NCBI GenBank assembly: GCA_012225525.1
Contig: GCA_012225525.1_3923.1
Length of the DNA stretch: 64,000 nt
Strand: one strand, 5' to 3'
DNA from: a phage
Below are positions 5,533 to 51,415 of the stretch, in pieces. The notes under the pieces are model-generated. The model saw nothing but the letters and a program-made list of their open reading frames with translations, searched no databases and was not told where the DNA came from. The position numbers were made by a program, and so were the translations under genes. The first letter of the stretch is position 1, and each line of letters starts with the position of its first letter.

Positions 5533-5538
5533 ACTAGG

Positions 5539-5560
5539 GAGCCTCTTCGGAGGCTCTTTT
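5539..5560 (+). terminator. intrinsic terminator hairpin
   Basis: GAGCCTC-TTCG-GAGGCTC followed by TTTT. Confidence 0.6.
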
Positions 5561-5578
5561 CATCTGTAGGATTTAAAA

Positions 5579-7813
5579 ATGATTAAGACAATTAAAAAAT
5601 CAAACGGTACAGTAGTAAGCTTTGACCCAGAAAGACTGAATAAATGGGCATCATGGGCAGATAAGCGTGGAATTATCTGGTCAGAAGTCACTATGGAAGC
5701 TATGAAACGTGTCTATGAAGGTTGCACCACAAAAGAGATGCACCAAGCCATGATTGATGTTTGTGTTGATAAACAAACTCAAGAGTACTCAGATATGGCT
5801 GGACGACTGCTTTTGGGTATTATCTACAAAGAAGCCTTTGGAGGCTTTACTAAGGTTCCTACGCTGGTTACCTTCGTTAAAAATATGGAGAGAGCAGGAC
5901 TTTGGGAGAAGATGGACTATTCTCAGGAAGAGCTTGAATACCTGCAAGGGTACATTGTGCACTCAAAAGATATCTCTTATGGTTATGCAGTCCTGAAACA
6001 GTTCAGAGACAAGTATGGTATCCGTGATATTAAAACGGGAAGACTTTTTGAGTCACCACAATTTATGTTTATGGGTATGGCTATGAAAGCCTTTGAGAAG
6101 CAACCAAAGCACCGTAGACTACAAGATGTTATCAAGCTGTACACTTACCTATCTGACCTGAAGATTAACGCTCCTACTCCTTACCTGAATGGTTTAAGAG
6201 CCACTAAATCAGGTTATGCGTCATGCTGTTTGATTAAGGCGAATGATACCGCTGAATCTCTCGGTATTGCTGCAAAGGTTGCTTATGATATGACTACAAA
6301 GCAAGCTGGTATCGGGATGCTGATGGAGACTCGCACTATTGGTGATGGTATCCGTCAAAATACTATTGAACACATGGGTAAGCTACCTTATTACAAGCTT
6401 GTACGTTCATCTGTAGAGGCAAACAAACAGAAGAGTCGTGGTGGTTCAGCTAACAACTTCTATACTGCTCTAGACCCGCAGATTGAAGATTTACTGCGTT
6501 TGAAGCACCCTACAACGGTTCCTTCGAAACGTATTAACGAGATGGACTACTCATTTGGTACAAATGATTATTTCTGGCAGTGTGTTCAATATGATACAGA
6601 CTGGTTGCTATTCTCTTACAAGGATGCACCAAAACTCTATGACATGTTCTACACAGCATCTGCTGATGAGTTTGCTATGGCAGTTGGTCACGCAGTCCAT
6701 TCAGGTGTTAAGCACAGACGAGTAAAGGCTCGTGAAATTGCTAAACTGTTTATCCAGCAGCGTTATGCAACAGGCCGTGTGTACCCATTCTTCACGAATA
6801 ATGCAAACACACATACGCCATTTAAAGAACCTTTGAAGATGTCAAATCTTTGTATGGAAATTGTGTTGCCAGTGTACGGCTTTGAGAAAGAGACAGACCT
6901 TTACAGAGATGATGCTGTGAAAGAGGATGGTGAGGTAGCTCTTTGCTTCCTAGCTAGTTTGGTTGCAGGGAGAATTTCAGAAGATGAATACGCTGACGTT
7001 GCTTATTATGCTCTTGCAATGGTTGACTCCGTTATTGACCTTATGGATTATCCGTATCCGTCGATGCGTAACCATGTTCAGAAGCGTCGTTCTGTTGGTA
7101 TTGGCCTTACAAATGTGGCTCATTACCTTGCAAAAAACTACGTGAACTACTCTTCAAGAGCAGGTAAGACGAAGCTTCATGAGCTTGCTGAAATGCACTC
7201 TTACTACTTACACGAAGCTTCTTTAAGACTTGCTAAAGAACGTGGTGTACCTGAGTATATGCAGTTCACTAAGTATCCTGAAGGCTGGGTTCCTCCAAAG
7301 ACAGCTAACAAGAAGATTGATGAGAAGCATGATGCAAAACTTCGTTATGATTGGGATGACTTAGCACAACGTATTAAAGAAAATGGTGGAATCCGTAACT
7401 CTGTATTAGAGGCTTACATGCCTAATGAGAGTTCTTCACTGGCAACTAATACGACAAACGGCTTGTACCCAATTCGTGACTTTATTTTAACTAAAAAGTC
7501 TGCAACTGGTAACGTACTGTTTATTGTTCCAGATTACGAAGAGTTGAAGTATGTCTATGAAATTGCTTGGGATATTGACACCTTTGACCTGATTGATTGT
7601 TATGCAATTGTTCAAAAGTTCACTGGTCAAGCTATCTCTTCAGATTTCTATGTTGACTACGCAAAAGCTAAGAAGGTATCATTGGCTCAAGCTTTGAAGT
7701 ACATGATTTATGCTAACTCAGTAGGTATGAAAACTATGTACTACCTTAACAGTCGCATTGGTGTAGGTAAATCTGCACTGCAAGATGCTTATTGCGAGGG
7801 TTGTGGTGTTTAG
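5579..7813 (+). CDS. nrdA: ribonucleoside-diphosphate reductase large subunit (class I RNR alpha)
   Basis: 744 aa; ATP-cone-like N-terminus; followed by NrdB and redoxin genes. Confidence 0.9.
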   Translation: MIKTIKKSNGTVVSFDPERLNKWASWADKRGIIWSEVTMEAMKRVYEGCTTKEMHQAMIDVCVDKQTQEYSDMAGRLLLGIIYKEAFGGFTKVPTLVTFVKNMERAGLWEKMDYSQEELEYLQGYIVHSKDISYGYAVLKQFRDKYGIRDIKTGRLFESPQFMFMGMAMKAFEKQPKHRRLQDVIKLYTYLSDLKINAPTPYLNGLRATKSGYASCCLIKANDTAESLGIAAKVAYDMTTKQAGIGMLMETRTIGDGIRQNTIEHMGKLPYYKLVRSSVEANKQKSRGGSANNFYTALDPQIEDLLRLKHPTTVPSKRINEMDYSFGTNDYFWQCVQYDTDWLLFSYKDAPKLYDMFYTASADEFAMAVGHAVHSGVKHRRVKAREIAKLFIQQRYATGRVYPFFTNNANTHTPFKEPLKMSNLCMEIVLPVYGFEKETDLYRDDAVKEDGEVALCFLASLVAGRISEDEYADVAYYALAMVDSVIDLMDYPYPSMRNHVQKRRSVGIGLTNVAHYLAKNYVNYSSRAGKTKLHELAEMHSYYLHEASLRLAKERGVPEYMQFTKYPEGWVPPKTANKKIDEKHDAKLRYDWDDLAQRIKENGGIRNSVLEAYMPNESSSLATNTTNGLYPIRDFILTKKSATGNVLFIVPDYEELKYVYEIAWDIDTFDLIDCYAIVQKFTGQAISSDFYVDYAKAKKVSLAQALKYMIYANSVGMKTMYYLNSRIGVGKSALQDAYCEGCGV

Positions 7814-26877: not shown

Positions 26878-27168
26878 ATGGCTACTATCAAAAACGTTGT
26901 AATTCCTGTAAAAACTCGTGATGACGCTCGCATCATGGCGAAAAAGTTAGGCGGGAAAGTGGTTGACAACGGAAAACAATCTGCTGTAAGATGGGGTGTG
27001 AAGGCTGATAAACAGTTGAAGTTAAAAAATTCACCAATAAATCTTTTTACATGTGTAAACACTATCGGAAAGACAAATGTATACACGAAAAAGGCATATA
27101 TTAGACGCGTAGCCTTAACATCTCCAATTCGTACAATGAGAGGTTATGCAAAGCTGAAAATTAACTGA
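26878..27168 (+). CDS. small hypothetical protein (array gene 2)
   Basis: Follows cassette B. Confidence 0.5.
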   Translation: MATIKNVVIPVKTRDDARIMAKKLGGKVVDNGKQSAVRWGVKADKQLKLKNSPINLFTCVNTIGKTNVYTKKAYIRRVALTSPIRTMRGYAKLKIN

Positions 27169-27256
27169 TAAAGTACTTTACAAGGGGCTTAAAAGTTGGT
27201 ATCTTAAGCCCCAGATAAAGAGCTTTACCACTCAATCCTAAACTGGAGATTCAAAA
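27166..27256 (+). repeat. cassette type B copy 2
   Basis: Same architecture, hairpin GGGGCTTAA...TTAAGCCCC. Confidence 0.75.
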
Positions 27257-31884: not shown

Positions 31885-32133
31885 ATGTCAACTATCCGCG
31901 TAACTGTTAATGCTTATGGCTGCCACCAACTTGATGCAAAATTCGATATCGGTGGAACAGATAACACCTTTGACCTTATCAAAATGCTGATTCAGCAGGT
32001 GATACCAGATTATAACCCTACTGATGACTTCTGGAAAGATGCCGTAAAAGAAGCCATAAACGAGGAATCTCACTACCATTATTGGGGTGACTTGATTATC
32101 TCTCTGTACTACAGCAAACAAGGTTACAACTAA
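31885..32133 (+). CDS. small hypothetical protein (array gene 14)
   Basis: Follows cassette A. Confidence 0.5.
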   Translation: MSTIRVTVNAYGCHQLDAKFDIGGTDNTFDLIKMLIQQVIPDYNPTDDFWKDAVKEAINEESHYHYWGDLIISLYYSKQGYN

Positions 32134-32143
32134 TCGACGCAAC

Positions 32144-32196
32144 GGGGCTAAATAGCCCCAGATACCTGAAAAGCTCCTTCTCATAGGGGCTTTTTT
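32144..32196 (+). terminator. terminator region ending the rightward small-gene array
   Basis: Hairpin GGGGCTAAATAGCCCC, then GGGGCTTTTTT. Confidence 0.5.
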
Positions 32197-32199
32197 ACG

Positions 32200-33700
32200 T
32201 CTATAAAGAGACTCTATACAATCCCTTTCCTTTCCTTCCTAGAATCTATCCCGTACCTTAAAAGCAATAACTCTATAGGTTATTCTATAGCCCCTTATCA
32301 AATCAACTTAAATAAAAGCCAATAACCCCAGAAAGGGGATGGCCCATTAAAACGCTCTATAAAGCTCTATAACAGCCTTATCAACCTAACTTAAGCAATC
32401 ATATTAACCCACTCTAAAAAGCCCTTTATAGAGCTTCCCAGAGCCTTAAAAGAATCTTATAAGGGTGTAAGTTTATAGGCTGGCTAGTATCTTGTGAATA
32501 ACTAAACAATCCCCTTGATAGTCACTAAAAAGCATGTTATAGGGGGTATAAAGTTACTTCAAAGTAACGTAAAAAAGGCTATAAAGTTACGTAAATGCTA
32601 GCCCCCTTAACATTTTCTTAACAATTTCTTAACAATCCCTACATAGTTATGCTTGTTAGCCCCTTGTTAAATCTCTGTTAAGACCACGTAAAAGCCTTGT
32701 AAGAGTCTTTGACATAGCCTTAAAAGCTCCTGTAAAGCCCTATAAAGAGGTGTCTGTATAGTTGGGGTGTAATTACTAGGAAGAGACTTAAAAGAGCTTA
32801 CAAGGAGCTATAGAGAGCTTTTAAGAGGTATGTTTAAGAGTTCACTAAGAAAGGAAGGGAACGATAAGAAAAGAGATAGTGACCATGTTAATAGCTTGTT
32901 AAAAAGATTAAACACTTGTTAGGAACTTGTTAATTATCTTAATTGGTATTGTTACCAATCCCTACAAAATAACTCTTTAAAATTAACTTGTTAGCTCTTG
33001 TTAGTCATCTGTTAAGCCTCTGTAAAGACTATTCAGCACTTGTTAGAAAACTGTTAAGCCCTTGTTAGTTCTGTTAAGAAACTGTTAAGACCTTTGAAGA
33101 GATGTTAAGAGCTTGAGAGAGTTGTTAAGAGATTGTTAAGGATATTTTAAAATTTTGCAAAGTACTTGTAAGGGAGCTGTTAAGGGCTACCAAGCAGATA
33201 TACATCTTCTACAGATATTTTTCAGTCCCTTCAAAGACCCTAAAAAATGACTTGATAGTCCTATTTTATAAAAATTTTAAAATTCTGAATAATTACCTAG
33301 ACAGTCTTTTAAAAATACAGGTAGAAACAGGCTTATAAGATACCTTGTTAGTACCGTGTTAGACCTTGTGAGATAAGGTCTGTAAAGATATTCCTGTTAA
33401 GTTTGTTAAAACAGTCTATATAGAGGCTTAGTAGTGCCTAGTGAACACCTATAGAGGGTAACATAGCTAACCTAGAGATTAAGAGGTGTATAGGAGCTTC
33501 TAAGAGGGTGTAGAGAGATGGTTAAGGTGATTGTATAGGTTGTTAAGAAGGCTTGTTAGAAGAGTGTTTAGAAGGGCTATACAGAGGGGCTATTAAGACC
33601 ACTAGATAGATACTAAGATACTATATAGTACTATATAACTATATAGAGAGTAAGATTAAGAAGGTTGTTAAGAAGGGTAGATATTTTATTCACATATGAT
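32200..33700. repeat. ORF-free, motif-dense non-coding region (about 1.5 kb)
   Basis: No ORF of 60 aa or more on either strand; dozens of short motifs (CTTGTTAG, CTGTTAAG, TTGTTAAGA, CTATAAAG, TTAAAAG, TATAGAG). Confidence 0.8.
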
Positions 33701-33739
33701 GGTGACCCAGCGGTTGGGACAACCGATAAATTTTATAAA

Positions 33740-33778
33740 AATTAAAAAGCCCCCGATTAAGGAGGCTCTTAAGATATT
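33740..33778 (-). terminator. probable terminator for the leftward block
   Basis: Minus-strand hairpin around GAGCCTCC/GGGGGC followed by T-run; approximate. Confidence 0.35.
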
Positions 33779-34372
33779 TTAAATCAGTGTTTCCAGAACT
33801 GTTTTCAATGATGACTTGGTTGTCTGATAAAAATGAGTAAATCCATTGTTATTATCGAATACCTGCATCATGATATCATCTCCCTTGATTGGGTACACTC
33901 GGATATCATAGTGAAAACCATTAAAGACACAAGAGCCATTACAGAATGCACTAAAGTCATCCACTGAGATATACTCTTCATGTCCTGTGATTTTTATACA
34001 AACACCTTTACTCGGTCTCTTAGGGTTGATATCTTCCATCACAGACATACTCTGTCCACCAAGAGACACCATAGTGACCACTTTACGGTTCTTCTGTTTA
34101 AAGTACATCTTAACTTTCTGCAAAGTGTCTTCATAGAACGGATAAGACTTCTCTACAAATATTCCTTCAAGTGGCTCTTTACCATTTTCAACTTCTCTGG
34201 TATGTCGTACTGCAAAGATAATTTGTTGGAACCAGTCAAGATTTTCTTCGGAGAGTGCTTCTCGAACATCACTCCAGTCAAGGACTAGATAGTTACCTTC
34301 AACTTCTTTTAAGTTATCTTTTTCCATATCTATCACACCATTATCGTAAAACTTGATATTCTGGTACTGCAA
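33779..34372 (-). CDS. hypothetical protein
   Basis: Track ORF, 197 aa. Confidence 0.45.
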   Translation of the reverse strand: MQYQNIKFYDNGVIDMEKDNLKEVEGNYLVLDWSDVREALSEENLDWFQQIIFAVRHTREVENGKEPLEGIFVEKSYPFYEDTLQKVKMYFKQKNRKVVTMVSLGGQSMSVMEDINPKRPSKGVCIKITGHEEYISVDDFSAFCNGSCVFNGFHYDIRVYPIKGDDIMMQVFDNNNGFTHFYQTTKSSLKTVLETLI

Positions 34373-42019: not shown

Positions 42020-42170
42020 AAAAGTTGTTGACAAAGTACTTGACAAGGTGTAGGCTTATAAATACTTAGAAGATAACTTAAAAGGTTCCTCTAAAAAGGC
42101 TATTTAAACAGATATCTTTCTGGATATCTATCTTTTATCTTAAAAGCCTTTTAAGAGGTCTTATAAGAGG
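42020..42170. promoter_or_regulatory. divergent promoter/operator region
   Basis: TTGACA-like hexamers at about 42025-42050; palindrome AGATATCTTTCTGGATATCT; TTAAAAG/TTATAAGAGG motifs also seen in 32.2-33.7 kb. Confidence 0.4.
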
Positions 42171-42177
42171 CATACCA

Positions 42178-42549
42178 ATGAAAAACAGAACAAACAAAGG
42201 CCAGTTTAAAAAAGGCCAGTCTGGAAACCCATCTGGAAGACCAAAAGGCTCTCGTAACAAAAGCTCACTTGTAAAAGCTCAACTGACCATTGATAATTCT
42301 GCTGAGTTTGCTGCAAAGTTGTTTGAGGCGATTGTTACAAGGGACGCGGCTAAGCTTGCAGAGTTTGGGTTAAACACAGACGACGTAACCATCAAGAGCA
42401 TGATTGAGGTCGGTAAAACTATCATGACCCACTCAGCAGGTGAGATGAAAGCAATTGCAGCAGATACTAAGAAGACTCCTGATAATGGTGGTCAGTCTCA
42501 GACAGATAACAAACCAACGTTCTCTGCTGTTGCAACCCTTAAAAAATAA
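42178..42549 (+). CDS. hypothetical protein with N-terminal GNPSGRPKG motif (possible nucleic-acid binding)
   Basis: KGQSGNPSGRPKGSRNK near N-terminus. Confidence 0.4.
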   Translation: MKNRTNKGQFKKGQSGNPSGRPKGSRNKSSLVKAQLTIDNSAEFAAKLFEAIVTRDAAKLAEFGLNTDDVTIKSMIEVGKTIMTHSAGEMKAIAADTKKTPDNGGQSQTDNKPTFSAVATLKK

Positions 42550-44211: not shown

Positions 44212-44288
44212 CTCTGTTTAGCTCAGCTTGGTAGAGCGTTCCGTTTGGGGCGGTAAGGCCGGAGGTTCAAGTCCTCCAACAGAGACCA
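44212..44288 (+). tRNA. tRNA-Pro (anticodon TGG)
   Basis: Manual cloverleaf; T-arm GGAGG-TTCAAGT-CCTCC; CCA encoded. Confidence 0.7.
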
Positions 44289-44295
44289 AATTAAT

Positions 44296-44373
44296 GTTCC
44301 AGTAGACAAAATGGTAAAGTCACCACTCTTTCAAAGTGGATATCTGAGGGTTCAAATCCCTTCTGGAACGCCA
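44296..44373 (+). tRNA. tRNA-Glu (anticodon TTC)
   Basis: Acceptor GTTCCAG/CTGGAAC; anticodon loop CTTTCAA. Confidence 0.7.
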
Positions 44374-44463
44374 GTTTTGACAGAAGACCAATTACAGCAA
44401 ACTTAATCTACTCATCTGAAAGTTAATCGGACAAAGAAGATATTTGGTCTGGTCATTAAGAAT

Positions 44464-44540
44464 TGCGGGTATAGAGAAAGGGCGTCTCACATGTCTCATT
44501 AGCATGGTATCGGCAGGTTCGACTCCTGCACCCGCCTCCA
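44464..44540 (+). tRNA. tRNA-like element, anticodon arm unresolved
   Basis: Perfect T-arm GCAGG-TTCGACT-CCTGC and CCA end; internal GTCTCA duplication. Confidence 0.3.
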
Positions 44541-44623
44541 AATTTACAGAAGACCGTTTACAGCAATATTTATTAAATTTTTAGCGGAAAAATTGAAAGA
44601 TACGGTCTGGTAATACTAAACAT

Positions 44624-44700
44624 GGTTAGGAAGCACATAAGGTATGTGCGGTCGCCTGTTAAGCGAATGGCACAGGGTTCGAATCCCTGACTAACCGCCA
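44624..44700 (+). tRNA. tRNA-Asn (anticodon GTT)
   Basis: Anticodon loop CTGTTAA; T-arm CAGGG-TTCGAAT-CCCTG. Confidence 0.7.
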
Positions 44701-44769
44701 AATTTAGGAGAGAAGCGATTGCTCACCGATTTGTAAGGTGCAAGTCCTTAGCCTGAATAGAAATCAAAT

Positions 44770-44857
44770 GTGTCGTTATCCCGTAGATGGTAGCGGTGGG
44801 GACTGTAAATCCCTTGTCATTGAGACTCGGTAGGTTCGACTCCTACACGGCACACCA
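44770..44857 (+). tRNA. tRNA-Tyr (anticodon GTA), long variable arm
   Basis: Anticodon loop CTGTAAA; 88 nt. Confidence 0.7.
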
Positions 44858-44863
44858 AATAAA

Positions 44864-44941
44864 GGTTATGTAGTTTAATCTGGTTAAAATACTCCCCTGT
44901 CACGGGAGATGATGAGGGTTCAAATCCCTTCATAACCGCCA
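44864..44941 (+). tRNA. tRNA-Asp (anticodon GTC)
   Basis: Acceptor GGTTATG/CATAACC; anticodon stem-loop CTCCC-CTGTCAC-GGGAG. Confidence 0.75.
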
Positions 44942-45370
44942 ATTTTGAGAGGGCTATTTAGCCCCTCCCTTAAAGAGTTCTTACGAGTATTCTTTAAAGG
45001 AGCAGAAGACCAAATACAGCAAGAATGTATGAAATTTCAAGCCAATTCAATTTTGAAAATTTAAAACTTGGTCTGGCTCAACAAATTTACAGAAGACCGT
45101 TTACAGCAAAACTTAAACAATCTATTTCTCCGGTAAAGAAAAGGCGAAGGTTCGATTCCTTCACTCGGCAGATGTCGAGTTGGTGTAATGGTAGCACTTA
45201 AGATGATAAACAACGGTCTGGTAATTATCTTTGTAGATAAGTTATTAAGCTTACCTGTGAGTATGCGACCACAAAGGGTGAAAGGGTAAATTCTAGATTT
45301 AAACCCAAAAAGGCACATCGCTACAGACCTTAAGCAAGTCTGGGTAGCTTATCTACAAAGATAATTTAAT

Positions 45371-45446
45371 GGAAGTGTAGCAGAATGGTGATGCGGCAGA
45401 CTTTTAATCTGACAGGCGATGGGTTCGAATCCCTCCACTTCTACCA
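45371..45446 (+). tRNA. tRNA-Lys (anticodon TTT)
   Basis: Anticodon loop CTTTTAA; T-loop TTCGAAT. Confidence 0.65.
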
Positions 45447-45524
45447 AATTCACCCTTAACTGAGAAACACCTGCGCGGCTGGAAACACCCACTCAACAGT
45501 TTCTCTAACTAGGGTACTTATTCT

Positions 45525-45601
45525 GGTTCAGTCGCAGATAAGGTAATGCAAGGGTCTCATAAGCCCTATGAATGTGGGTTCGATTCCCATCTGAACCTCC
45601 A
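45525..45601 (+). tRNA. tRNA-Met or Ile2 (anticodon CAT)
   Basis: Acceptor GGTTCAG/CTGAACC; anticodon loop CTCATAA. Confidence 0.7.
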
Positions 45602-45602
45602 A

Positions 45603-45678
45603 GCTGGTATAGTTAAGAAGGTTATAACACTCCCCTGATAAGGGAACATCGGTGGTTCGATTCCACCTACCAGTACCA
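45603..45678 (+). tRNA. tRNA-Ile (anticodon GAT)
   Basis: Anticodon loop CTGATAA; T-arm GGTGG-TTCGATT-CCACC. Confidence 0.7.
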
Positions 45679-45693
45679 ATTTCAATAAAGTTG

Positions 45694-45722
45694 TTGACAT
45701 TGAGATGTGACTACTTTATAGT
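45694..45722 (+). promoter_or_regulatory. sigma70-like promoter inside tRNA array
   Basis: TTGACA-17-TATAGT. Confidence 0.5.
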
Positions 45723-45924
45723 AACCTTAGTTTTCGTTGCGTAGCGTCTATTTTGCAAATTTAAAATAAATGCAAACGACAATGTTTTTCTGGCAGTAGC
45801 TTGATAGGCTAAACACCAGTGAGGTCTTCCAATCCCTCATCAAAGAATTTGGCGTACTCGCCCACGGTATGATTAATAAGGTGGGCATCTTTAAGGGCTT
45901 TCTAAGAGAGTCTTTAAAGATAAT

Positions 45925-46001
45925 GCACCCTTAGTTCAATTGGATAGAGCAACGGTCTTCTAAATCGTTAGTTACAGGTTCGAATCCTGTAGGGTGTACC
46001 A
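45925..46001 (+). tRNA. tRNA-Arg (anticodon TCT)
   Basis: Anticodon loop CTTCTAA; T-arm ACAGG-TTCGAAT-CCTGT. Confidence 0.7.
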
Positions 46002-46143
46002 AATAGTTAGCAGATTACTTAGACGGCCTTAGCGGGTCTTCCTGTAGGGAGGTGGTCTGTATCTCATGTTTTCCAGAACATGTAAATAATCTGAGAAGAA
46101 GCTTGACAGTGTTGAGATAACAGGGTAAGCTTCGAATTATAAT

Positions 46144-46226
46144 ATGGGACGATGTTAAGACTCTAAGGCATGAGCAACGGCCTCCAAAACCGTTTCAAAG
46201 GGGTTCAACTCCTCCGTCCCATGCCA
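46144..46226 (+). tRNA. tRNA, probably Trp (anticodon CCA), atypically long D region
   Basis: Perfect acceptor ATGGGAC/GTCCCAT, CCA end, candidate loop CTCCAAA; 83 nt. Confidence 0.4.
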
Positions 46227-46239
46227 AAGTCTTATTAGG

Positions 46240-46327
46240 GGTAGGTAGCGGCTAATGGCAGCCAAACAGTCTTGAAAACTGTTGCCACTGTAGAGATACG
46301 GTGAGGGTTCGACTCCTTTACTTACCG
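46240..46327 (+). tRNA. tRNA-Ser (anticodon TGA), long variable arm
   Basis: Anticodon stem-loop ACAGT-CTTGAAA-ACTGT. Confidence 0.7.
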
Positions 46328-46483
46328 CCTAATAAGATTTACTCCGTCCATGCTTGTTCGCATTGTCGGTTTATCCCTCGTGTATTGTCGTACACTGTCA
46401 AAGCACCTAGTAGGTGTCACGGAGAAGAGATAATATCAAGCTCTCCAAAGGTTCTAGTCACCGGATTAAACAAGACTATGCAA

Positions 46484-46503
46484 AGACCTATTTAGGTCTT
46501 TTT
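46484..46503 (+). terminator. intrinsic terminator within tRNA region
   Basis: AGACCT-ATTT-AGGTCT followed by TTTT. Confidence 0.5.
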
Positions 46504-46582
46504 AGAGGGCTTCTAAGGTTATTACAGCTTGTTGTGGAACCTTGTTGCTTAGGTTCTTAGAAGTTCTCTAAAAAGATTTAAT

Positions 46583-46660
46583 GGGAGATTGACGGTAATT
46601 GGTAAACCTACCATCCTTAGAAGTTGGTGTTTGAGGGTTCGAATCCCTTGTCTCCCACCA
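46583..46660 (+). tRNA. tRNA with anticodon TAG (Leu-type) but short variable loop
   Basis: Anticodon loop CTTAGAA; discriminator A; 5-nt variable loop. Confidence 0.55.
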
Positions 46661-46667
46661 AATTAAT

Positions 46668-46743
46668 GCAGGTGTAGCAAAATGGTTATGCGGCTGACTC
46701 TTAATCAGTAAGACGATGGGTTCAATTCCCTCCACCTGTACCA
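46668..46743 (+). tRNA. tRNA-Lys (anticodon CTT)
   Basis: Anticodon loop CTCTTAA. Confidence 0.65.
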
Positions 46744-46749
46744 AACAAT

Positions 46750-46825
46750 GGGGTCATAGTTTATATGGTTAAAATTCGAGTTTTGCAAACTTGGGAACTG
46801 AGTTCAATTCTCAGTGACTCCACCA
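46750..46825 (+). tRNA. tRNA-Ala (anticodon TGC)
   Basis: Anticodon loop TTTGCAA; T-arm CTGAG-TTCAATT-CTCAG. Confidence 0.7.
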
Positions 46826-46831
46826 ATTAGT

Positions 46832-46906
46832 GCATCCATAGTTTAAACGGGAAAATTACAGTCTTCCAAACTGAGGTTGAGGGTTCGATTCCCTCTGGAT
46901 GCTCCA
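46832..46906 (+). tRNA. tRNA-Gly (anticodon TCC)
   Basis: Acceptor GCATCCA/TGGATGC; anticodon loop CTTCCAA. Confidence 0.7.
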
Positions 46907-46913
46907 AATTAAT

Positions 46914-46989
46914 GCTCCTATCGTATAATTGGCTATTACGGTTGCCTTGTAAGTAACTTATCAGGGTTCGAATCCTTGTGGGAGCACCA
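46914..46989 (+). tRNA. tRNA-Thr (anticodon TGT)
   Basis: Anticodon stem-loop GTTGC-CTTGTAA-GTAAC. Confidence 0.7.
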
Positions 46990-47085
46990 ATTTAGAGGTC
47001 AAGTGAAAGACCGCTTTGAGTCAACTGAAGACCGTAACAAATCCCACGGAGTTGAGTTAGCGGAACAACTTCAGACCTCTTTCAT
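46990..47085 (+). ncRNA. candidate structured spacer RNA
   Basis: Closing inverted repeat AGAGGTC...GACCTCT enclosing TGAAGACCGTAACAAATCC. Confidence 0.3.
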
Positions 47086-47160
47086 ACTCGCTTAGTTTAT
47101 ATGGTAAAACATCACCCTTACAAGATGAAGAAAAAGGTTCAAGTCCTTTAGTGAGTACCA
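47086..47160 (+). tRNA. tRNA-Val (anticodon TAC)
   Basis: Anticodon loop CTTACAA; T-arm AAAGG-TTCAAGT-CCTTT. Confidence 0.6.
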
Positions 47161-47161
47161 T

Positions 47162-47239
47162 GTTCCAGTATCCCAATTGGCAGAGGATGCAAGCTCAAAC
47201 CTTGTACTAGTGACGGTTCGAATCCGTCTTGGAACACCA
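47162..47239 (+). tRNA. tRNA with anticodon CAA (Leu-type) but short variable loop
   Basis: Anticodon stem-loop GCAAG-CTCAAAC-CTTGT; 6-nt variable loop; discriminator A. Confidence 0.55.
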
Positions 47240-47255
47240 ATTTTAGGAGAACACT

Positions 47256-47363
47256 ATGAGTAATAAATCAATTGCAAAAAAGTTTATAGCGTCATTCAAA
47301 AACAGGCGTAAAAACAACTCTTGTGAAAAACTGTATGGTGTTCTTGTAGGTAAGCAGGATTAG
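47256..47363 (+). CDS. very small ORF (35 aa) with strong RBS inside tRNA array
   Basis: TAGGAGAACACTATG; stop overlaps 5' end of the next tRNA. Confidence 0.2.
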   Translation: MSNKSIAKKFIASFKNRRKNNSCEKLYGVLVGKQD

Positions 47364-47429
47364 TTCAAATGGATAGAGCAACAGTCTACGAAGCTGTTAA
47401 TAGGGGTTCGAATCCCTTATCCTGCGCCA
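47354..47429 (+). tRNA. tRNA-Arg (anticodon ACG)
   Basis: Perfect acceptor GCAGGAT/ATCCTGC; anticodon loop CTACGAA. Confidence 0.7.
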
Positions 47430-47448
47430 ATTTAAAGAGGCTATTTAA

Positions 47449-48006
47449 ATGAGATACTTGAAGTATGCTTCATGGATTTTCTTAGCTTTGCTAGAGCCAT
47501 TGGCAGCAATCTTAGCAGTTATCTTAGCACCTTTTGTAGTTCCATTTTACAGTGAGAAGAAAGGACACTTACCTTTTGGATTCAGATGGATGGAGACATA
47601 TGACAACCCGATTGATGGTGATGAAGGTCACGTTAAAAGATGGGCTAAGATTAGAAAGATTGGTAAGCTTGGTGTCTATTTGCAGAGAGTTGGATGGCTC
47701 TGGAGAAACAAAGCTTATAACTTCTCTTACCATGTGTTAGGAAGAGATGTAAAAGATGTTACTAAGTGGAAAGGCAATATCAACGTAAGTTCTGACCCTG
47801 AAGATAATCAGACAGGTTATCTCCTAATGTGGAACAGTAATGCTTGGGGATTATTCGCTTTTATCCCATCAATTAAAGTCTTTGGTAAACAATTCTACTG
47901 GAGAATTTATGTTGGATGGAAGCTAAAAAGTGTTGTCCCAGAAGAAAGAGCATTCTCAAGGGAAAGAGTTATGTTGGCATTCTTTATTCATCCACTGAGA
48001 AAGTAA
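47449..48006 (+). CDS. membrane protein embedded in tRNA array
   Basis: 185 aa; N-terminal hydrophobic segments. Confidence 0.5.
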   Translation: MRYLKYASWIFLALLEPLAAILAVILAPFVVPFYSEKKGHLPFGFRWMETYDNPIDGDEGHVKRWAKIRKIGKLGVYLQRVGWLWRNKAYNFSYHVLGRDVKDVTKWKGNINVSSDPEDNQTGYLLMWNSNAWGLFAFIPSIKVFGKQFYWRIYVGWKLKSVVPEERAFSRERVMLAFFIHPLRK

Positions 48007-48014
48007 AGATTTAA

Positions 48015-48090
48015 AGGGGATTAGTTTACAAGGTTAAAACCTCGGTCTTTGAAATCGAAGAAGTTGGTTCAATTCCAACATCCCCCGCCA
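48015..48090 (+). tRNA. tRNA-Gln (anticodon TTG)
   Basis: Anticodon stem-loop TCGGT-CTTTGAA-ATCGA; T-arm GTTGG-TTCAATT-CCAAC. Confidence 0.65.
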
Positions 48091-48092
48091 AT

Positions 48093-48171
48093 GCTCCATT
48101 ACTCCAATTGGCAGAGAGGCCAGACTTAAAATCTGTGTTATGTATCGGTTCGAATCCGATATGGAGTACCA
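48093..48171 (+). tRNA. tRNA with anticodon TAA (Leu-type) but short variable loop
   Basis: Anticodon loop CTTAAAA; 7-nt variable loop; discriminator A. Confidence 0.55.
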
Positions 48172-48176
48172 AATTT

Positions 48177-48252
48177 AGCGGTATAGCATAACTGGCAATG
48201 CAGCAGTCTCTGAAGCTGTCTTATTAAGGTTCAAATCCTTATGCCGCTGCCA
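48177..48252 (+). tRNA. tRNA-Gln (anticodon CTG)
   Basis: Anticodon loop CTCTGAA; T-arm TAAGG-TTCAAAT-CCTTA. Confidence 0.65.
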
Positions 48253-48283
48253 CTTCTAAGGATTCTTACGAGAGTCCTTAAAT

Positions 48284-48359
48284 GTGGCCTTATCATAAAT
48301 GGTAATGACCCATGCTGTGAACATGGTCTATACGGGTTCAAATCCCGTAGGTCACCCCA
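48284..48359 (+). tRNA. tRNA-His (anticodon GTG)
   Basis: Anticodon stem-loop CCATG-CTGTGAA-CATGG. Confidence 0.7.
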
Positions 48360-48364
48360 ATTTA

Positions 48365-48439
48365 TAGTCCAAGTAGCTTATATGGTTAAAGCGCGTGTCT
48401 GAAAAACATGAGAAGAGGGTTCAAATCCCACTGGACTAC
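48365..48439 (+). tRNA. tRNA-Phe (anticodon GAA), CCA not encoded
   Basis: Acceptor TAGTCCA/TGGACTA; anticodon loop CTGAAAA. Confidence 0.65.
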
Positions 48440-48457
48440 CAATTTCAAAGGTGCTTA

Positions 48458-49192
48458 ATGAAAGAGATGACAGAACAAGGTAAGGAGATTTTTAATCTCT
48501 TAAAAACTGGTAAAGGGTTTTCTAACCCCCTTATTACTGGTGCAGCAGTTCTCGGTGGAACCGTAGCTGCCTCTACATCACTTGTAAGCTCTATTAGTTC
48601 TGTATCAGACCCTACAGTAAAGGATAAGCTTGTTGCTGCTGGACTTACAACAGTTCTGCTTAACAGCTTTACCACGAGTCTGACAAGCACTACATCAACT
48701 ACCAAAACACTGACAGATTACGGTCAAAAGTCCATTGATGAGTTTTCATCACGTATGCAGGTAGCAAAAGGTTATTCTAATGTTATGGGTGCAGCAGGTG
48801 AACAAGTTGGCTGTACACCATTTAGTGGTATTATGGGTGTTGCTACAGAGTATGGTCAAAAAGCTATTGATATGATTAACAGTGCACTAGACGGTGTTAA
48901 TGATGTATTAAGTGACTTACAAGACGCTATTGACAAAGGTCTTGATACTATTTCTGATTTAGCTAACCAAGCTGTTAGTAAGATTAATGAAGGTATCTCG
49001 AAGATTACAGCTTATGCAGATGAAGTTGTGCAGATGATTGAAGAAGAAGCTGCCCTTATTGCAGAGTACCTTAAAACGAATATCAATGGGTTCTTAGCAG
49101 GTATCTTACCAGACTGGTTTGATGATGCTTGTAAAACTGGTGTAATTGACACTATTGCAACACCAGAAATGAAGAACGCATTACAGAAATAA
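48458..49192 (+). CDS. Ser/Thr-rich hypothetical protein
   Basis: ATG 48458 after AAAGG; track start 48395 lies inside tRNA-Phe. Confidence 0.5.
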   Translation: MKEMTEQGKEIFNLLKTGKGFSNPLITGAAVLGGTVAASTSLVSSISSVSDPTVKDKLVAAGLTTVLLNSFTTSLTSTTSTTKTLTDYGQKSIDEFSSRMQVAKGYSNVMGAAGEQVGCTPFSGIMGVATEYGQKAIDMINSALDGVNDVLSDLQDAIDKGLDTISDLANQAVSKINEGISKITAYADEVVQMIEEEAALIAEYLKTNINGFLAGILPDWFDDACKTGVIDTIATPEMKNALQK

Positions 49193-49194
49193 AT

Positions 49195-49287
49195 GGAAGA
49201 TTAACCCTAAAAGGTAAGGGAGCAGTTTGCTAAACTGCCAGTAGCTGAGAAATCGGTGTACCAGTTCAAGTCTGGTATCTTCCTCCA
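49195..49287 (+). tRNA. tRNA-Ser (anticodon GCT), long variable arm
   Basis: Perfect acceptor GGAAGAT/ATCTTCC; anticodon stem-loop GCAGT-TTGCTAA-ACTGC. Confidence 0.75.
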
Positions 49288-49291
49288 ATTT

Positions 49292-49367
49292 GAATCCGTG
49301 ACAGAAATGGCTATGTGCCTGTCTGCAAAACAGGTTTATAAGGGTTCGAGTCCCTTCGGATTCTCCA
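49292..49367 (+). tRNA. tRNA-Cys (anticodon GCA)
   Basis: Perfect acceptor GAATCCG/CGGATTC; anticodon stem-loop CCTGT-CTGCAAA-ACAGG. Confidence 0.75.
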
Positions 49368-49792: not shown

Positions 49793-49813
49793 TTCTATTT
49801 GCGGAGGTGCTTA

Positions 49814-51415
49814 ATGGACTTAAATGCTGTTAAGCAGAAGCGAGTGGAAGATGTTAGGAAAGTCCTAGCTGGAGAGTTGGGGCTTTCTGATGAAGTAAAA
49901 GAAATTATCAAATCATTCGGTAAAGACCCCTCTAAATTCCTTCCAACTCAAATTCTGACTTTATTAAGATACACACCAGACCAAGTTCGCCTTATCTTTA
50001 AATTGATGACTGATAAGAATTATGTAGCCCCTCAGCCGGGTTCTCAAGAGGTCTTTTTAAACACTAATGCTGACTTGGTTCTTTATGGTGGTGCTGCTGG
50101 TGCTGGTAAAACTGCTGCATTGTTAATGGACTCTTTAAGATTTATTGAAGACCCTAACTATAATGCTGTATATTTCCGTCGAAATACAACACAGCTACAA
50201 GGTGGTTTATGGCCTGCTGCAAAGAAACTATTTGGTAAGTTTGGTGGGATTCCTCACGAGCAGAAAATGACTATCACATTCCCTTCTGGGGCAACTATCA
50301 AGTTTACCTACCTAGAACTTGAAAAGCACGCTGAAGGTCATCAGGGTATTGAATACTCAGCTATCTACTTTGACGAAGGTACACACTTCTCTGCTTCACA
50401 GATTTCATACCTACAGACCCGTCTACGTTCTGGTGCTGAAGGCGACTCATACATGAAGATTTCTATGAACCCAGATAGAGACCACTTCATTTATGATTGG
50501 GTAGAACCCTTCTTAGATGAAGAAGGTTACCCAGACCCTGAGAAGTGCGGTCGTATTCGTTGGTATGTTATGAATGACGGTGTGATGGTTTCTGATTGGG
50601 AAAGAGACAAGATTCTTGAAATGTTCCCTCTTGAGATTCCTCAGACATACACCTTCATCTCTGGTACGATTGATGATAACCCAATTCTTGACTTCTTAGA
50701 ACCTAAATATCGTGGTAAGCTGGAAAACAACACCCCTGTAAACGTTGCAAGACTTCGTTTCGGTAACTGGAAGGCTCGTGCAGAAGGTTCAAACTATTGG
50801 CAAAGACAATGGTGTGAAATTGTTGATTCACTCCCAGAAGATGTATTCGATGTCAGAGCATGGGACTTAGCAGCAACTTTACCATCTGAGATTAACCCTA
50901 ATCCAGACTGGACAGCAGGTGTTAAGATGGGTAAATCTAAAAAAGACGGTTGCTATTATATCATTGATGTAGTAAGATTTAGAGATAGACCCTCTGGAGT
51001 CGAAACACAAATTAATTTGACTGCTGAAAGTGACGGTAAGCGAACTGGTATTTTTATCCCTCAAGACCCAGGCGCTGCTGGTAAATCCTACGCAACATCC
51101 CTCATCAGGAAACTTGCCGAGAAAGGTTATCGAGCAAGAGCTAAACCAACAAATAAAGACAAAGTTACCCGATTTGCGGGGTTTTCTGCTGCTTCTGAAG
51201 CTGGACTTGTAAAAGTCTTGAGAGGTAGTTGGAATGAAGCTTACTTTCAAGAGCTTGAAGGCTTTTGTGGTGATGGTAAAACTAAAGATGACCAAGTGGA
51301 TGCTACCAGTGATGCTTTCAACAGTCTTAACGAAGTTAAATTATTCAAGCCACCATCAATGGGTGCTCACACAGATTTAGTGAGAGGAAACCCATATGAG
51401 GGGCTTAGACGTTGA
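49814..51415 (+). CDS. terL: terminase large subunit
   Basis: Walker A LYGGAAGAGKTAA; ATG 49814 after GGAGGT; followed by portal. Confidence 0.8.
   Translation: MDLNAVKQKRVEDVRKVLAGELGLSDEVKEIIKSFGKDPSKFLPTQILTLLRYTPDQVRLIFKLMTDKNYVAPQPGSQEVFLNTNADLVLYGGAAGAGKTAALLMDSLRFIEDPNYNAVYFRRNTTQLQGGLWPAAKKLFGKFGGIPHEQKMTITFPSGATIKFTYLELEKHAEGHQGIEYSAIYFDEGTHFSASQISYLQTRLRSGAEGDSYMKISMNPDRDHFIYDWVEPFLDEEGYPDPEKCGRIRWYVMNDGVMVSDWERDKILEMFPLEIPQTYTFISGTIDDNPILDFLEPKYRGKLENNTPVNVARLRFGNWKARAEGSNYWQRQWCEIVDSLPEDVFDVRAWDLAATLPSEINPNPDWTAGVKMGKSKKDGCYYIIDVVRFRDRPSGVETQINLTAESDGKRTGIFIPQDPGAAGKSYATSLIRKLAEKGYRARAKPTNKDKVTRFAGFSAASEAGLVKVLRGSWNEAYFQELEGFCGDGKTKDDQVDATSDAFNSLNEVKLFKPPSMGAHTDLVRGNPYEGLRR

What the first reader, a model, noticed from the sequence alone, without database searches (positions are those of the whole stretch)
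32200..33700. 1.5-kb ORF-free region packed with short repeated motifs at a convergent transcription point
No ORF of 60 aa or more exists on either strand, unusual for a phage. The sequence is dominated by CTTGTTAG, CTGTTAAG, TTGTTAAGA, CTATAAAG, TTAAAAG-N-TAAGAG and TATAGAG, for example CTTGTTAGTTCTGTTAAGAAACTGTTAAGACCTTTGAAGAGATGTTAAGAGCTTGAGAGAGTTGTTAAGAGATTGTTAAGG near 33060-33140 and ACTATATAGTACTATATAACTATATAGAG near 33620. Rightward genes end at 32133 and leftward genes end at 33779. Candidate roles are a replication origin with iteron-like sites, genome terminus / packaging signal, a binding-site array for a phage DNA-binding protein, or a non-coding RNA locus. Related TTAAAAG / TTATAAGAGG motifs recur at 42080-42170.
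Basis: seen in the sequence. Interest (0 to 1): 0.8.

Follow-up and report, generated by a model that had tools for sequence, protein, structure and literature searches.

The report
Phage chromosome ends with phased repeats
The gene-free 1.6 kb is where this Felix O1-type phage's linear chromosome begins and ends: a 591-bp terminal repeat, already mapped in close relatives, set in conserved short-word arrays spaced one DNA turn apart whose role has not been described.

Summary
Window 32185-33778 is the longest stretch without an ORF of 60 aa or more. It is packed with short words (TGTTA 28 times against 2.4 expected) on an ~11-bp period (z = 9.8).

The window is a Felixounavirus (92% identical to wV8 here). 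The 608-bp direct terminal repeat (DTR) mapped experimentally in UAB_Phi87 (Bardina 2016) aligns to the middle of the region. Three records that carry an exact repeat at both ends (E9, Ro111lw, HP1) have identical boundary words. These place the DTR at window 32601-33191 (591 bp).

So the region is the concatemer junction: left arm (~470 bp), DTR, right arm (~590 bp), with terminator hairpins at both outer edges.

As far as I could search, four points are undescribed:
- All three segments are helically phased word arrays.
- Indels come in units of 11 and 22 nt.
- The layout persists in Susp-, Moogle- and Kolesnikviruses and an unclassified Hafnia phage, with lineage-specific words.
- The two DTR boundaries form an inverted repeat.

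This parallels the T7 layout (DTR flanked by CCTAAAG arrays) and fits staggered nicking by terminase. I found no support for an RNA gene and little for an origin. The identity is already known; the arrays are a modest new description.

The parts
31885..32133 (+). Last gene of the rightward (early) gene block (wV8 gene 27 homologue), transcribed towards the chromosome end.
   Evidence: ORF list. PHROG 4559, E = 3.9e-43. wV8 annotation.
32169..32196 (+). Terminator-like hairpin closing the rightward block: AAAAGCTCC / loop TTCTCATA / GGGGCTTTT, followed by a T run.
   Evidence: Read directly from the sequence. It is the mirror partner of the - strand terminator at 33745-33770 (inverted repeat I6). 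The consensus scan did not list it, because the stem contains a G-T pair.
32197..32600 (.). Left non-coding arm, which lies just inside the right-end DTR copy of virion DNA. It holds phased arrays of CTATAAAG, CTTAAAAG and CTCTATA words. A - strand terminator-like hairpin lies at 32340-32325.
   Evidence: Lag-11 z = 3.6 and lag-22 z = 3.6. Word counts. Hairpin. Kolesnikviruses use CTTCTAAG / TTCTAAAC words in the same place.
32601..33191 (.). Direct terminal repeat (DTR), 591 bp. It is single copy in this assembly and present at both ends of virion DNA.
   Evidence: The UAB_Phi87 DTR, mapped by Bal31 digestion and run-off sequencing (PMC4837284, Fig. S1), aligns to 32609-33193. Exact repeats at both record ends in E9 (580 bp), HP1 (570 bp) and Ro111lw (613 bp) start GCCCCCTTAACA and end GGGCTACC. 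PhageTerm gave a 581-bp DTR for Pr103Blw (PMC8303462). The DTR is single copy in the window.
32604..32635 (-). Left-boundary element: three CTTAACA words (the array word in reverse orientation) at 11-bp spacing, directly after the left cut site TA|GCCCCCTTAACA.
   Evidence: TRF period 11, 2.8 copies. Inverted repeats I1, I2, I7 and I8 pair it with 33072-33186. Invariant in 11 sequences from three genera.
33080..33203 (+). Right-boundary element: a TGTTAAG array, the deeply conserved block ATTTTAAAATTTTGCAAAG (33144-33162), the cut site GGGCTACC|AAGCAGATATACA, and the CAGATAT repeat.
   Evidence: This is the only part still alignable to Kolesnikviruses (H66-H69). The boundary words are conserved in 16 sequences. 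The block is also present in Hafnia phage Zyzzx.
33192..33778 (.). Right non-coding arm, which lies just inside the left-end DTR copy of virion DNA. It is a G-rich phased array (TTAAGA, TATAGAG, TTGTTAAGAAGG). It also holds an AT-rich palindrome at 33262-33295, a TATA-rich tandem at 33608-33647, and back-to-back terminator hairpins at 33711-33725 (+) and 33770-33745 (-).
   Evidence: Lag 11-12 z = 3.8-3.9. TRF. Terminator scan. Inverted repeat I15. The - strand terminator is annotated in wV8.
33779..34372 (-). Last gene of the leftward gene block (wV8 gene 28 / Felix O1 ORF24 homologue), transcribed towards the chromosome end.
   Evidence: ORF list. PHROG 4330, E = 1.3e-110. Annotations.

Best explanation
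The region is the physical terminus of the phage chromosome, seen here as a concatemer junction because the assembly is opened elsewhere.

Shown:
- Window 32601-33191 is the ~590-bp direct terminal repeat (DTR) of a Felixounavirus.
- It sits between two non-coding arms of about 470 and 590 bp.
- Both neighbouring gene blocks are transcribed towards it. Terminator-like hairpins lie at both outer edges of the region.
- All three segments consist of short words (TGTTAAG / CTTGTTAG in the DTR; CTATAAAG / CTTAAAAG on the left; TTAAGA / TATAGAG on the right) repeated about every 11 bp, close to one helical turn.
- This register is kept in evolution: indels come as 11 or 22-23 nt.
- The layout is kept in five lineages of Ounavirinae, although the words differ between them.

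Inferred mechanism:
- Replication makes head-to-tail concatemers with one DTR copy per junction.
- Terminase, probably with an as yet unidentified small subunit or other terminus-binding protein, assembles on the phased arrays. The phasing puts every site on one face of the helix.
- It then nicks opposite strands at the two DTR boundaries. The boundary words form an inverted repeat: TA|GCCCCCTTAACA on the top strand, and CTT|GGTAGCCCTTAACA on the bottom strand. One enzyme could therefore cut 0-4 nt 5' of the same word on each strand.
- Strand-displacement synthesis from the two 3' ends duplicates the 591 bp, so that each packaged genome carries a full repeat. This is the scheme proposed for T7.
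For: Identity of the phage. The region is 92.5% identical to wV8, and 256 phage records match it, nearly all Felix O1-like.

DTR:
- The UAB_Phi87 DTR (608 bp) was determined experimentally (PMC4837284). It aligns with both ends in register to 32609-33193.
- E9, HP1 and Ro111lw carry exact repeats of 580, 570 and 613 bp on both record ends, with identical boundary words. UAB_69 has an annotated DTR.
- Erwinia phage M7 (the IMG/VR contig) has an exact 444-bp DTR with homologous boundaries.
- PhageTerm reported 581 bp for Pr103Blw.
- Several GenBank records are opened at the left boundary.

Arrays:
- Enrichment and periodicity.
- Periodicity in each segment in three genera, and none in coding controls. 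The same holds in Hafnia phage Zyzzx, with TGTAAAG words.
- Indel lengths are quantised at 11, 12, 22 and 23 nt.

Conservation:
- Boundary words are invariant in 11 sequences and partly kept in 5 Kolesnikviruses.
- The region aligns end to end at 76-78% between genera. Gene 27 drops to 65% or gives no hit, and only 157-238 nt of gene 28 align. The gene 28 protein is about 50% identical between genera.

Inverted symmetry of the boundaries, and equal folding z-scores on both strands.

T7 parallel: a 160-bp DTR followed by CCTAAAG words on a 13-bp period. The T7 model of one repeat per junction with a second copy synthesised is summarised in PMC10438801.

TerL and portal genes are present in the window.
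Against: - There are no sequencing reads for this isolate, so the ends are assigned by homology only.
- The two published kinds of boundary call differ by 2-10 nt. Run-off sequencing and the UAB_69 annotation differ from the PhageTerm-type records at both ends.
- The cut positions relative to the shared word differ by 4 nt between the two ends.
- No protein has been shown to bind the arrays. The one candidate I tested for a small-terminase fold, the DUF5681 protein, was inconclusive.
- Quantised indels and word homogeneity could arise from replication slippage alone, without selection for phasing.
- Within the genus the region is less conserved than the flanking genes (92% against 97-99.6% with wV8).
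- The function of the analogous T7 arrays is itself unsettled (my own knowledge).
Confidence: 0.85

Rival explanations
1. Replication origin. The repeated words are iterons bound by a phage initiator, and an AT-rich stretch (for example 33262-33295) unwinds. This could hold in addition to the terminus role.
For: - Dense directly repeated words on a helical period.
- An AT-rich palindrome just inside the right arm (I15).
- Two DnaA-box-like words, TTATTCACA, in opposite orientation at 32493-32501 and 33686-33694.
- T7 has secondary origins close to its ends (my own knowledge).
Against: - The DnaA-like words are absent from UAB_69, SUSP2, HP1 and the Kolesnikviruses. Their count over the whole window is at chance level.
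- No IHF consensus site lies in the region.
- The neighbouring genes match only families of unknown function.
- The GC-skew switch coincides with the switch in gene orientation, so it says nothing about replication.
Confidence: 0.12
2. A protein-binding platform with a role other than packaging: capping the ends against exonucleases, controlling DNA ejection, or acting as a sink for a transcription regulator that also acts at the 42.1-kb promoter leader.
For: - The same word family clusters in only one other place, the leader at 42068-42167.
- More than 1 kb at each virion end carries no gene.
- The arrays extend far beyond the cut sites.
Against: - The words in that leader do not follow each lineage's own terminus words in Kolesnikvirus M7 or Hafnia phage Zyzzx.
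- No candidate protein was identified.
- Some of the leader words overlap a Shine-Dalgarno-like AAGAGG.
Confidence: 0.15
3. Non-coding RNA locus: the region is transcribed into one or more structured RNAs.
For: - It is a long, conserved, ORF-free region with strand-biased words.
- The minimum free energy is somewhat below that of shuffles, z about -2.3.
Against: - No Rfam match at E <= 1 apart from one chance-level hit over the terminator.
- Promoter-like sites number 13, against 9.5 +/- 2.8 expected, and none is strong.
- The z-score is the same on the opposite strand. It comes from the DNA-level inverted repeat of the DTR boundaries.
- Terminator-like hairpins lie at both outer edges of the region, two on each strand.
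Confidence: 0.03
4. Spacer DNA without sequence-specific function outside the DTR boundaries. The words and the 11-nt indels are by-products of slippage in low-complexity DNA that merely has to be non-coding.
For: - Indels in whole units are what slippage produces.
- The words differ between lineages.
- Within the genus the region evolves faster than the flanking genes.
Against: - The region aligns end to end at 76-78% between genera, while the flanking genes partly lose alignability.
- Many 20-nt bins well away from the boundaries are 0.9-0.99 conserved in the 10-sequence alignment, which is mostly Felixounavirus with one Suspvirus and one Mooglevirus.
- Length and layout are kept in every Ounavirinae lineage examined.
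Confidence: 0.1

Closest known systems
Direct terminal repeat of Felix O1-like phages (UAB_Phi87, 608 bp, Bardina et al. 2016; Pr103Blw, 581 bp by PhageTerm; FO1a)
   Same: It is homologous sequence: about 84% identity over the whole repeat, with the same first and last words and the same genomic position between the gene 27 and gene 28 homologues.
   Different: Nothing essential differs. The repeat here is 591 bp, because whole 11- and 22-nt units have been gained or lost. The papers I could read give the repeat sequence or length but do not describe the phased arrays, the non-coding arms or the inverted boundary words.
Bacteriophage T7 / T3 chromosome ends: a 160-bp (T7) terminal repeat flanked by arrays of short repeats (called SRL and SRR by Dunn and Studier 1983, from my own knowledge)
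   Same: - An exact short DTR with fixed ends.
- Non-coding arrays of a 7-8-nt word, in one orientation, on both sides of and inside the repeat.
- The word types are similar: T7 has CCTAAAG, CATAAAG and CTTAAAG; this phage has CTTAAAAG, CTATAAAG and CTGTAAAG.
- There is one repeat copy per concatemer junction, and the second is synthesised (PMC10438801).
   Different: - There is no sequence homology, and the host virus is a myovirus, not a podovirus.
- The period is about 11 bp here and 13 bp in T7.
- The non-coding region totals 1.6 kb, against about 0.5-0.9 kb in T7.
- T7 has promoters and an origin among its arrays, and genes that start there. Here both neighbouring gene blocks end at the region.
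- The T7 ends are not an inverted repeat.
Iteron arrays of plasmid and phage origins, and 11-bp centromere repeats such as parC of plasmid R1 (my own knowledge)
   Same: Short words repeated on a helical period, which in those systems load a protein cooperatively on one face of the DNA.
   Different: - Those arrays have 4-10 copies, not about a hundred.
- They sit next to the gene of their binding protein. No such gene lies beside this region: the flanking genes match only families of unknown function.
- This region contains the mapped chromosome ends.
Small-terminase recognition sites (lambda cosB R sites; SPP1 and SF6 pac with phased boxes and bent DNA) (my own knowledge)
   Same: Repeated, phased recognition words next to the terminase cut site, thought to wrap around an oligomeric small subunit.
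   Different: - No small terminase has been recognised in Felix O1-like phages (PMC4837284).
- The arrays are an order of magnitude longer.
- The packaging type is exact DTR, not cos or headful.

Membership tests
Exact short direct terminal repeat (DTR) terminus of Felixounavirus | The same sequence is present at both ends of virion DNA. | tested here: met
   Met by homology, not by reads of this isolate. The experimentally mapped UAB_Phi87 DTR aligns to 32609-33193. Homologous sequence is duplicated exactly at both record ends in E9, Ro111lw and HP1.
Exact short direct terminal repeat (DTR) terminus of Felixounavirus | Fixed, sequence-defined boundaries. | tested here: met
   The left words TA|GCCCCCTTAACA and the right words GGGCTACC|AAGCAGATATACA are identical in the window and in 10 relatives from three genera.
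Exact short direct terminal repeat (DTR) terminus of Felixounavirus | Doubled read depth over the repeat, and read-start pile-ups at its two boundaries. | not testable with these tools
   No sequencing reads are available. PhageTerm results exist only for relatives.
Exact short direct terminal repeat (DTR) terminus of Felixounavirus | A large terminase of the clade that makes such ends. | tested here: met
   TerL lies at 49799-51415 (PHROG 979, E = 1e-233). Bardina et al. place Felix O1-type TerL in a DTR cluster of their own. I did not build a tree.
T7-type terminal architecture (DTR plus flanking short-repeat arrays) | Arrays of a short word in one orientation on both sides of the DTR. | tested here: met
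   Word maps and periodicity of the left arm, DTR and right arm. T7 was analysed in the same way for comparison.
T7-type terminal architecture (DTR plus flanking short-repeat arrays) | Sequence or evolutionary relatedness to the T7 ends. | tested here: not met
   The word, the period (11 against 13 bp) and the context differ, and the DNA searches returned no T7-like phage. This is analogy, not membership.
Iteron-type replication origin | Repeated initiator sites together with an AT-rich unwinding element and host-factor sites (DnaA, IHF) or an adjacent initiator gene. | tested here: inconclusive
   Repeats and an AT-rich palindrome are present. DnaA-like words are not conserved. There is no IHF site. 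The neighbouring genes have unknown function. Initiation itself cannot be tested here.
Structured non-coding RNA | Own promoter and terminator, strand-specific conserved structure, or a match to a known family. | tested here: not met
   No Rfam match. Promoter-like sites are at chance level. Folding z-scores are equal on both strands.
Small terminase subunit (as candidate binder: DUF5681 protein, 42178-42549) | A small-terminase fold: N-terminal DNA-binding domain plus helical oligomerisation core. | tested here: inconclusive
   Pfam DUF5681, E = 2e-14. No PDB match by sequence. The AlphaFold model has pLDDT 70 and shows a helical hairpin. In Foldseek, the best PDB hits include the G20c and P74-26 small terminases, but only at E = 3-5 and probability 0.1-0.16.

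The most novel reading that the evidence does not exclude
The whole 1.6-kb terminus is a helically phased landing platform of roughly a hundred or more short recognition words. An unrecognised terminus-binding protein, possibly the missing small terminase of Ounavirinae, would polymerise or wrap on it. Its word specificity has drifted between lineages: TGTTAAG, TGTAAAG, CTTCTAAG, CTATAAAG. The inverted boundary words direct one nickase to opposite strands about 590 bp apart. This would be a packaging-recognition architecture much larger and more regular than the known cos or pac sites. It could also explain the long-unexplained short-repeat arrays at the T7 ends.
Probability: 0.3. Interest if true: 0.55.

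Novelty: new member of a known kind. Interest (0 to 1): 0.35.

Why it matters
Practical value:
- Felix O1-type phages are widely used for Salmonella and E. coli typing, biocontrol and therapy, yet most of their database records are opened arbitrarily and omit the terminal repeat.
- The invariant boundary words (TA|GCCCCCTTAACA and GGGCTACC|AAGCAGATATACA) allow the true ends and the DTR to be annotated from sequence alone, across at least three genera.
- They also flag the small ORFs annotated inside this region as probably spurious.

Biological value:
- The conserved, phase-preserving arrays and the inverted boundary words give a concrete, testable model of how a myovirus without a recognised small terminase finds and cuts its concatemer junction.
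- They provide a second, independent example of the T7-style layout of a repeat flanked by word arrays. Comparison of the two could finally give those arrays a function.

Tried and rejected
1. Rfam scan at permissive E-values: only a chance-level hit over the terminator.
2. RNA folding of the DTR on both strands: z = -2.3 and -2.4. The symmetry shows it reflects the DNA inverted repeat, not an RNA.
3. Sigma-70 promoter scan: at chance level.
4. IHF consensus: none in the region. DnaA-box consensus: two words, not conserved across genera.
5. CTTAAAAG elsewhere on the + strand: I suspected a link to the early promoters, but most copies lie inside coding sequence, so the strand bias is coding bias.
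6. Co-variation test between each lineage's terminus words and the leader of the DUF5681 gene: positive in the window, negative in Kolesnikvirus M7, ambiguous in Zyzzx. The link was dropped as unproven.
7. DUF5681 protein as the missing small terminase: Pfam, PHROGs, NCBIfam, PDB sequence search, AlphaFold and Foldseek gave nothing significant.
8. Global dyad symmetry of the left and right arms: inverted sharing of k-mers is only modestly higher than direct sharing (96 against 76 six-mers), and I ran no shuffle control. I make no claim from it.
9. Literature searches for a description of the arrays or for a Felix O1 transcriptome: none found in the library. A search for papers on the T7 CCTAAAG word returned only noise.
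10. DNA curvature modelling was considered but not run, because I could not verify the wedge parameters.
Full report
**What the window is.** The region 32100-33800 is 92.5% identical over its full length to Escherichia phage wV8. It matches 256 phage records, almost all Felix O1-like myoviruses of E. coli, Salmonella, Shigella and Citrobacter. The window therefore comes from a Felixounavirus (about 86-89 kb, around 26 tRNA genes). In wV8 the stretch lies between gene 27 (rightward) and gene 28 (leftward). It carries no annotation apart from a terminator. The Felix O1 and wV8 genome papers do not discuss it.

**Check of the observation.**
- No ORF of 36 aa or more lies inside 32185-33778. It is the longest gap in the window without an ORF of 60 aa or more (1594 nt). 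The next three gaps are the tRNA cluster.
- The flanking genes end at 32133 and 33779, as stated.
- Word enrichment is large and strand-biased. TGTTA occurs 28 times on the + strand and 5 times on the - strand, against 2.35 expected. CTTGTTAG occurs 8 times against 0.07.
- 13 of the window's 28 YTGTTARG matches fall here.
- A 12-nt matrix (consensus aCTTGTTAAGAa) finds 36 + strand sites, against 4.8 +/- 2.1 in 200 dinucleotide-preserving shuffles.
- The whole 1.5 kb is periodic. Base autocorrelation has z = 9.8 at lag 11, with harmonics at 22 and 32-33. 13 of 35 spacings between sites are exactly 11 nt. Coding controls show nothing comparable.
- Each word unit contains TAA or TAG on both strands, and 11 is not a multiple of 3. 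The absence of ORFs therefore follows automatically from the arrays (read from the sequence).

**What it is.**
- Bardina et al. 2016 mapped the chromosome ends of the Felix O1-like phage UAB_Phi87 by Bal31 digestion and run-off sequencing, and printed its 608-bp direct terminal repeat (PMC4837284).
- That sequence aligns to window 32609-33193 with both ends in register, at about 84% identity.
- Independent confirmation comes from records that carry the repeat on both ends. E9 has an exact 580 bp, Ro111lw an exact 613 bp, and the Mooglevirus HP1 an exact 570 bp that is annotated as a repeat. All three start GCCCCCTTAACA and end GGGCTACC.
- UAB_69 has an annotated DTR with the same words. PhageTerm gave 581 bp for Pr103Blw.
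- Several other records are simply opened at the left boundary.
- With the boundary words of the three duplicated records, the DTR in the window is 32601-33191 (591 bp). It is present once in the window, as expected for a short-read assembly that collapses the repeat and linearises elsewhere (PMC10438801).
- The finding is therefore the concatemer junction: a left arm of about 470 bp, the DTR, and a right arm of about 590 bp.

**Anatomy.**
- Both neighbouring gene blocks are transcribed towards the junction.
- Each side carries terminator-like hairpins for both directions. On the left these are 32169-32196 (+, read from the sequence) and 32340-32325 (-). On the right they are 33711-33725 (+) and 33770-33745 (-). 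The two outermost are mirror images of each other (I6).
- The left arm is C-rich and built from CTATAAAG, CTTAAAAG and CTCTATA. The DTR is built from CTTGTTAG and CTGTTAAG. The right arm is G-rich, with TTAAGA, TATAGAG and TTGTTAAGAAGG.
- Nearly all words point the same way. The exception is three CTTAACA copies at 11-bp spacing immediately inside the left boundary (32604-32635). These form an inverted repeat with the TGTTAAG array at the right boundary (I1, I2, I7 and I8).
- The cut sites themselves are an inverted pair: TA|GCCCCCTTAACA on the top strand, and CTT|GGTAGCCCTTAACA on the bottom strand.

**Comparative evidence.**
- The same layout (convergent genes, a 1.4-2 kb ORF-poor stretch, a DTR in the middle) occurs in Suspvirus SUSP2, Mooglevirus HP1, Kolesnikviruses (Panisse, ST-3, M7, Prophecy) and the unclassified Hafnia phage Zyzzx.
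- Erwinia phage M7 has an exact 444-bp DTR, and its boundaries are recognisably homologous.
- The ~11-bp periodicity is present in all three segments in Felixounavirus, Mooglevirus and Kolesnikvirus, and in Zyzzx.
- The words drift between lineages. The Kolesnikvirus left arm uses CTTCTAAG / TTCTAAAC (12 copies, none inverted). Zyzzx uses TGTAAAG (19 copies). The DTR word TGTTAAG is shared by four genera.
- The block ATTTTAAAATTTTGCAAAG just inside the right boundary, and the word GCAGATATACA just outside it, are the most deeply conserved parts.
- In an alignment of 10 phages, mostly Felixounavirus with one Suspvirus and one Mooglevirus, most 20-nt bins are 0.85-0.99 conserved.
- Between genera the region aligns end to end at 76-78%. 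Gene 27 drops to 65% or gives no hit, and only 157-238 nt of gene 28 align. The gene 28 protein is about 50% identical between genera.
- Within the genus the region is less conserved than the flanking genes (92% against 97-99.6% with wV8).
- Indels of 5 nt or more are quantised. Pairwise counts are 76 for 11 nt, 18 for 12, 41 for 22 and 32 for 23. Whole units are gained and lost, and the helical register is kept. This also explains why DTR lengths range from 570 to 618 bp.

**How it most likely works.**
- Shown: the DTR position, the fixed boundaries, the phased arrays, their conservation, and the inverted boundary words.
- Inferred: the mechanism. Concatemers carry one DTR per junction. A terminase complex assembles on the phased arrays. 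It nicks opposite strands 0-4 nt 5' of the same word at the two boundaries. Strand-displacement synthesis then duplicates the 591 bp, so that both neighbouring genomes receive a full repeat.
- This is the scheme accepted for T7-like phages (PMC10438801; general terminase logic in PMC3896407).
- The binding protein is unknown. Felix O1-like phages have no recognised small terminase.

**Rivals.**
- Origin of replication. This is not excluded as an additional role, but nothing points to it beyond the repeats. DnaA-like words are not conserved, there is no IHF site, and the skew switch follows gene orientation.
- Non-coding RNA. Not supported.
- Functionless slippage-prone spacer. Cross-genus conservation of sequence, length and layout argues against it, but it is compatible with the unit-sized indels.
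- A platform for another function (end protection, ejection control, regulator sink). This stays open. The only other cluster of the word family is the leader at 42068-42167, upstream of a DUF5681 gene. The words there do not track lineage-specific terminus words.

**Comparison with what is known.**
- The DTR itself is a member of the published Felixounavirus DTR family by direct homology.
- The overall architecture works like the T7 ends. I analysed T7 in the same way. Its 160-bp repeat is followed by CCTAAAG, CATAAAG and CTTAAAG words on a 13-bp period (z = 9.0).
- The two share no sequence homology, and they differ in period, size, virus family and gene orientation. This is analogy, not membership.
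- Resemblances to iteron origins, to parC-type 11-bp centromeres and to small-terminase sites (cosB, pac) are functional analogies recalled from my own knowledge.

**Novelty and score.**
- The identity of the region is already known for this genus.
- The library I could search holds no description of the phased arrays, the non-coding arms, the quantised indels, the lineage-specific words or the inverted boundary words.
- I rate it a new member of a known kind (a T7-style DTR junction in a myovirus), interest 0.35.
- The most novel reading not excluded is a very large, phase-locked recognition platform for an unidentified terminus-binding protein (probability about 0.3).

Noticed in passing
window 42068-42167: This is the only place outside the terminus with a dense cluster of the same word family (8 per 100 nt against a mean of 0.44). 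It is the leader between a sigma-70-like promoter (about 42034-42066) and the gene at 42178. It contains the perfect palindrome CTTAAAAGCCTTTTAAG (42139-42155) and two TAAGAGG words, one of which serves as a Shine-Dalgarno-like site. The equivalent leaders in Kolesnikvirus M7 and Hafnia phage Zyzzx also carry CTTAAAAG, CTTTAAAG and CTGTAAAG words.
   Followed up: partly
window 42178-42549 (+): The first gene of the rightward block encodes a 123-aa DUF5681 protein with the invariant N-terminal motif FKKGQSGNPxGRPKGSRN followed by a helical hairpin. It is conserved across Ounavirinae. I tested it as a candidate for the missing small terminase or terminus binder. The fold search was not significant: small terminases of G20c and P74-26 appear only at E = 3-5.
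   Followed up: partly
window 32941-32986: Two short blocks inside the DTR are in the opposite order in UAB_Phi87. They are TTGGTATTGTTACCAATCCCT (a palindrome with a 6-bp stem) and ACAAAATAACTCTTTAAAATTAA. This small rearrangement is the one poorly conserved bin of the alignment.
   Followed up: no
L031 (Hafnia phage Zyzzx MW749004) 4216-6278: An unclassified member of Ounavirinae has a 2-kb version of the region. Its arrays are built on TGTAAAG(A) (19 copies) and CTACAAAGA, with several embedded CTTGACAA words. It keeps the block ATTTTAAGATTTTGCAAAGG.
   Followed up: partly
L021 (UAB_69) 1646-1941; L022 (E9) 241-1157: Some GenBank records annotate ORFs of 25-55 aa inside the DTR and arms. 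The indel spectrum of the region (1, 2, 11 and 22-23 nt) and the stop codons built into every word make these calls very unlikely to be genes.
   Followed up: partly
window 27158-27232 and other early intergenic spacers (for example L001 172-221, 639-734, 1895-1958): The rightward early gene block contains families of 40-80-nt intergenic direct repeats (DR_1 to DR_9 in the wV8 annotation; the 57-bp repeat of the Felix O1 paper). They have the form TTTACA-N17-TAAAGT around a GGGGCTTAAAAG...AAGCCCC hairpin, and so look like repeated early promoters. Contig breaks in draft assemblies fall at these repeats.
   Followed up: no
window 32493-32501 (-) and 33686-33694 (+): Two DnaA-box-like words (TTATTCACA) lie in opposite orientation, one in each arm. 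They are kept in several Felixounaviruses (E9 even has TTATCCACA) but are absent from UAB_69, SUSP2, HP1 and the Kolesnikviruses.
   Followed up: yes
window 44212-49367: A cluster of 26 tRNA genes on the + strand, between the DUF5681 operon and terL. It is typical of the genus.
   Followed up: no
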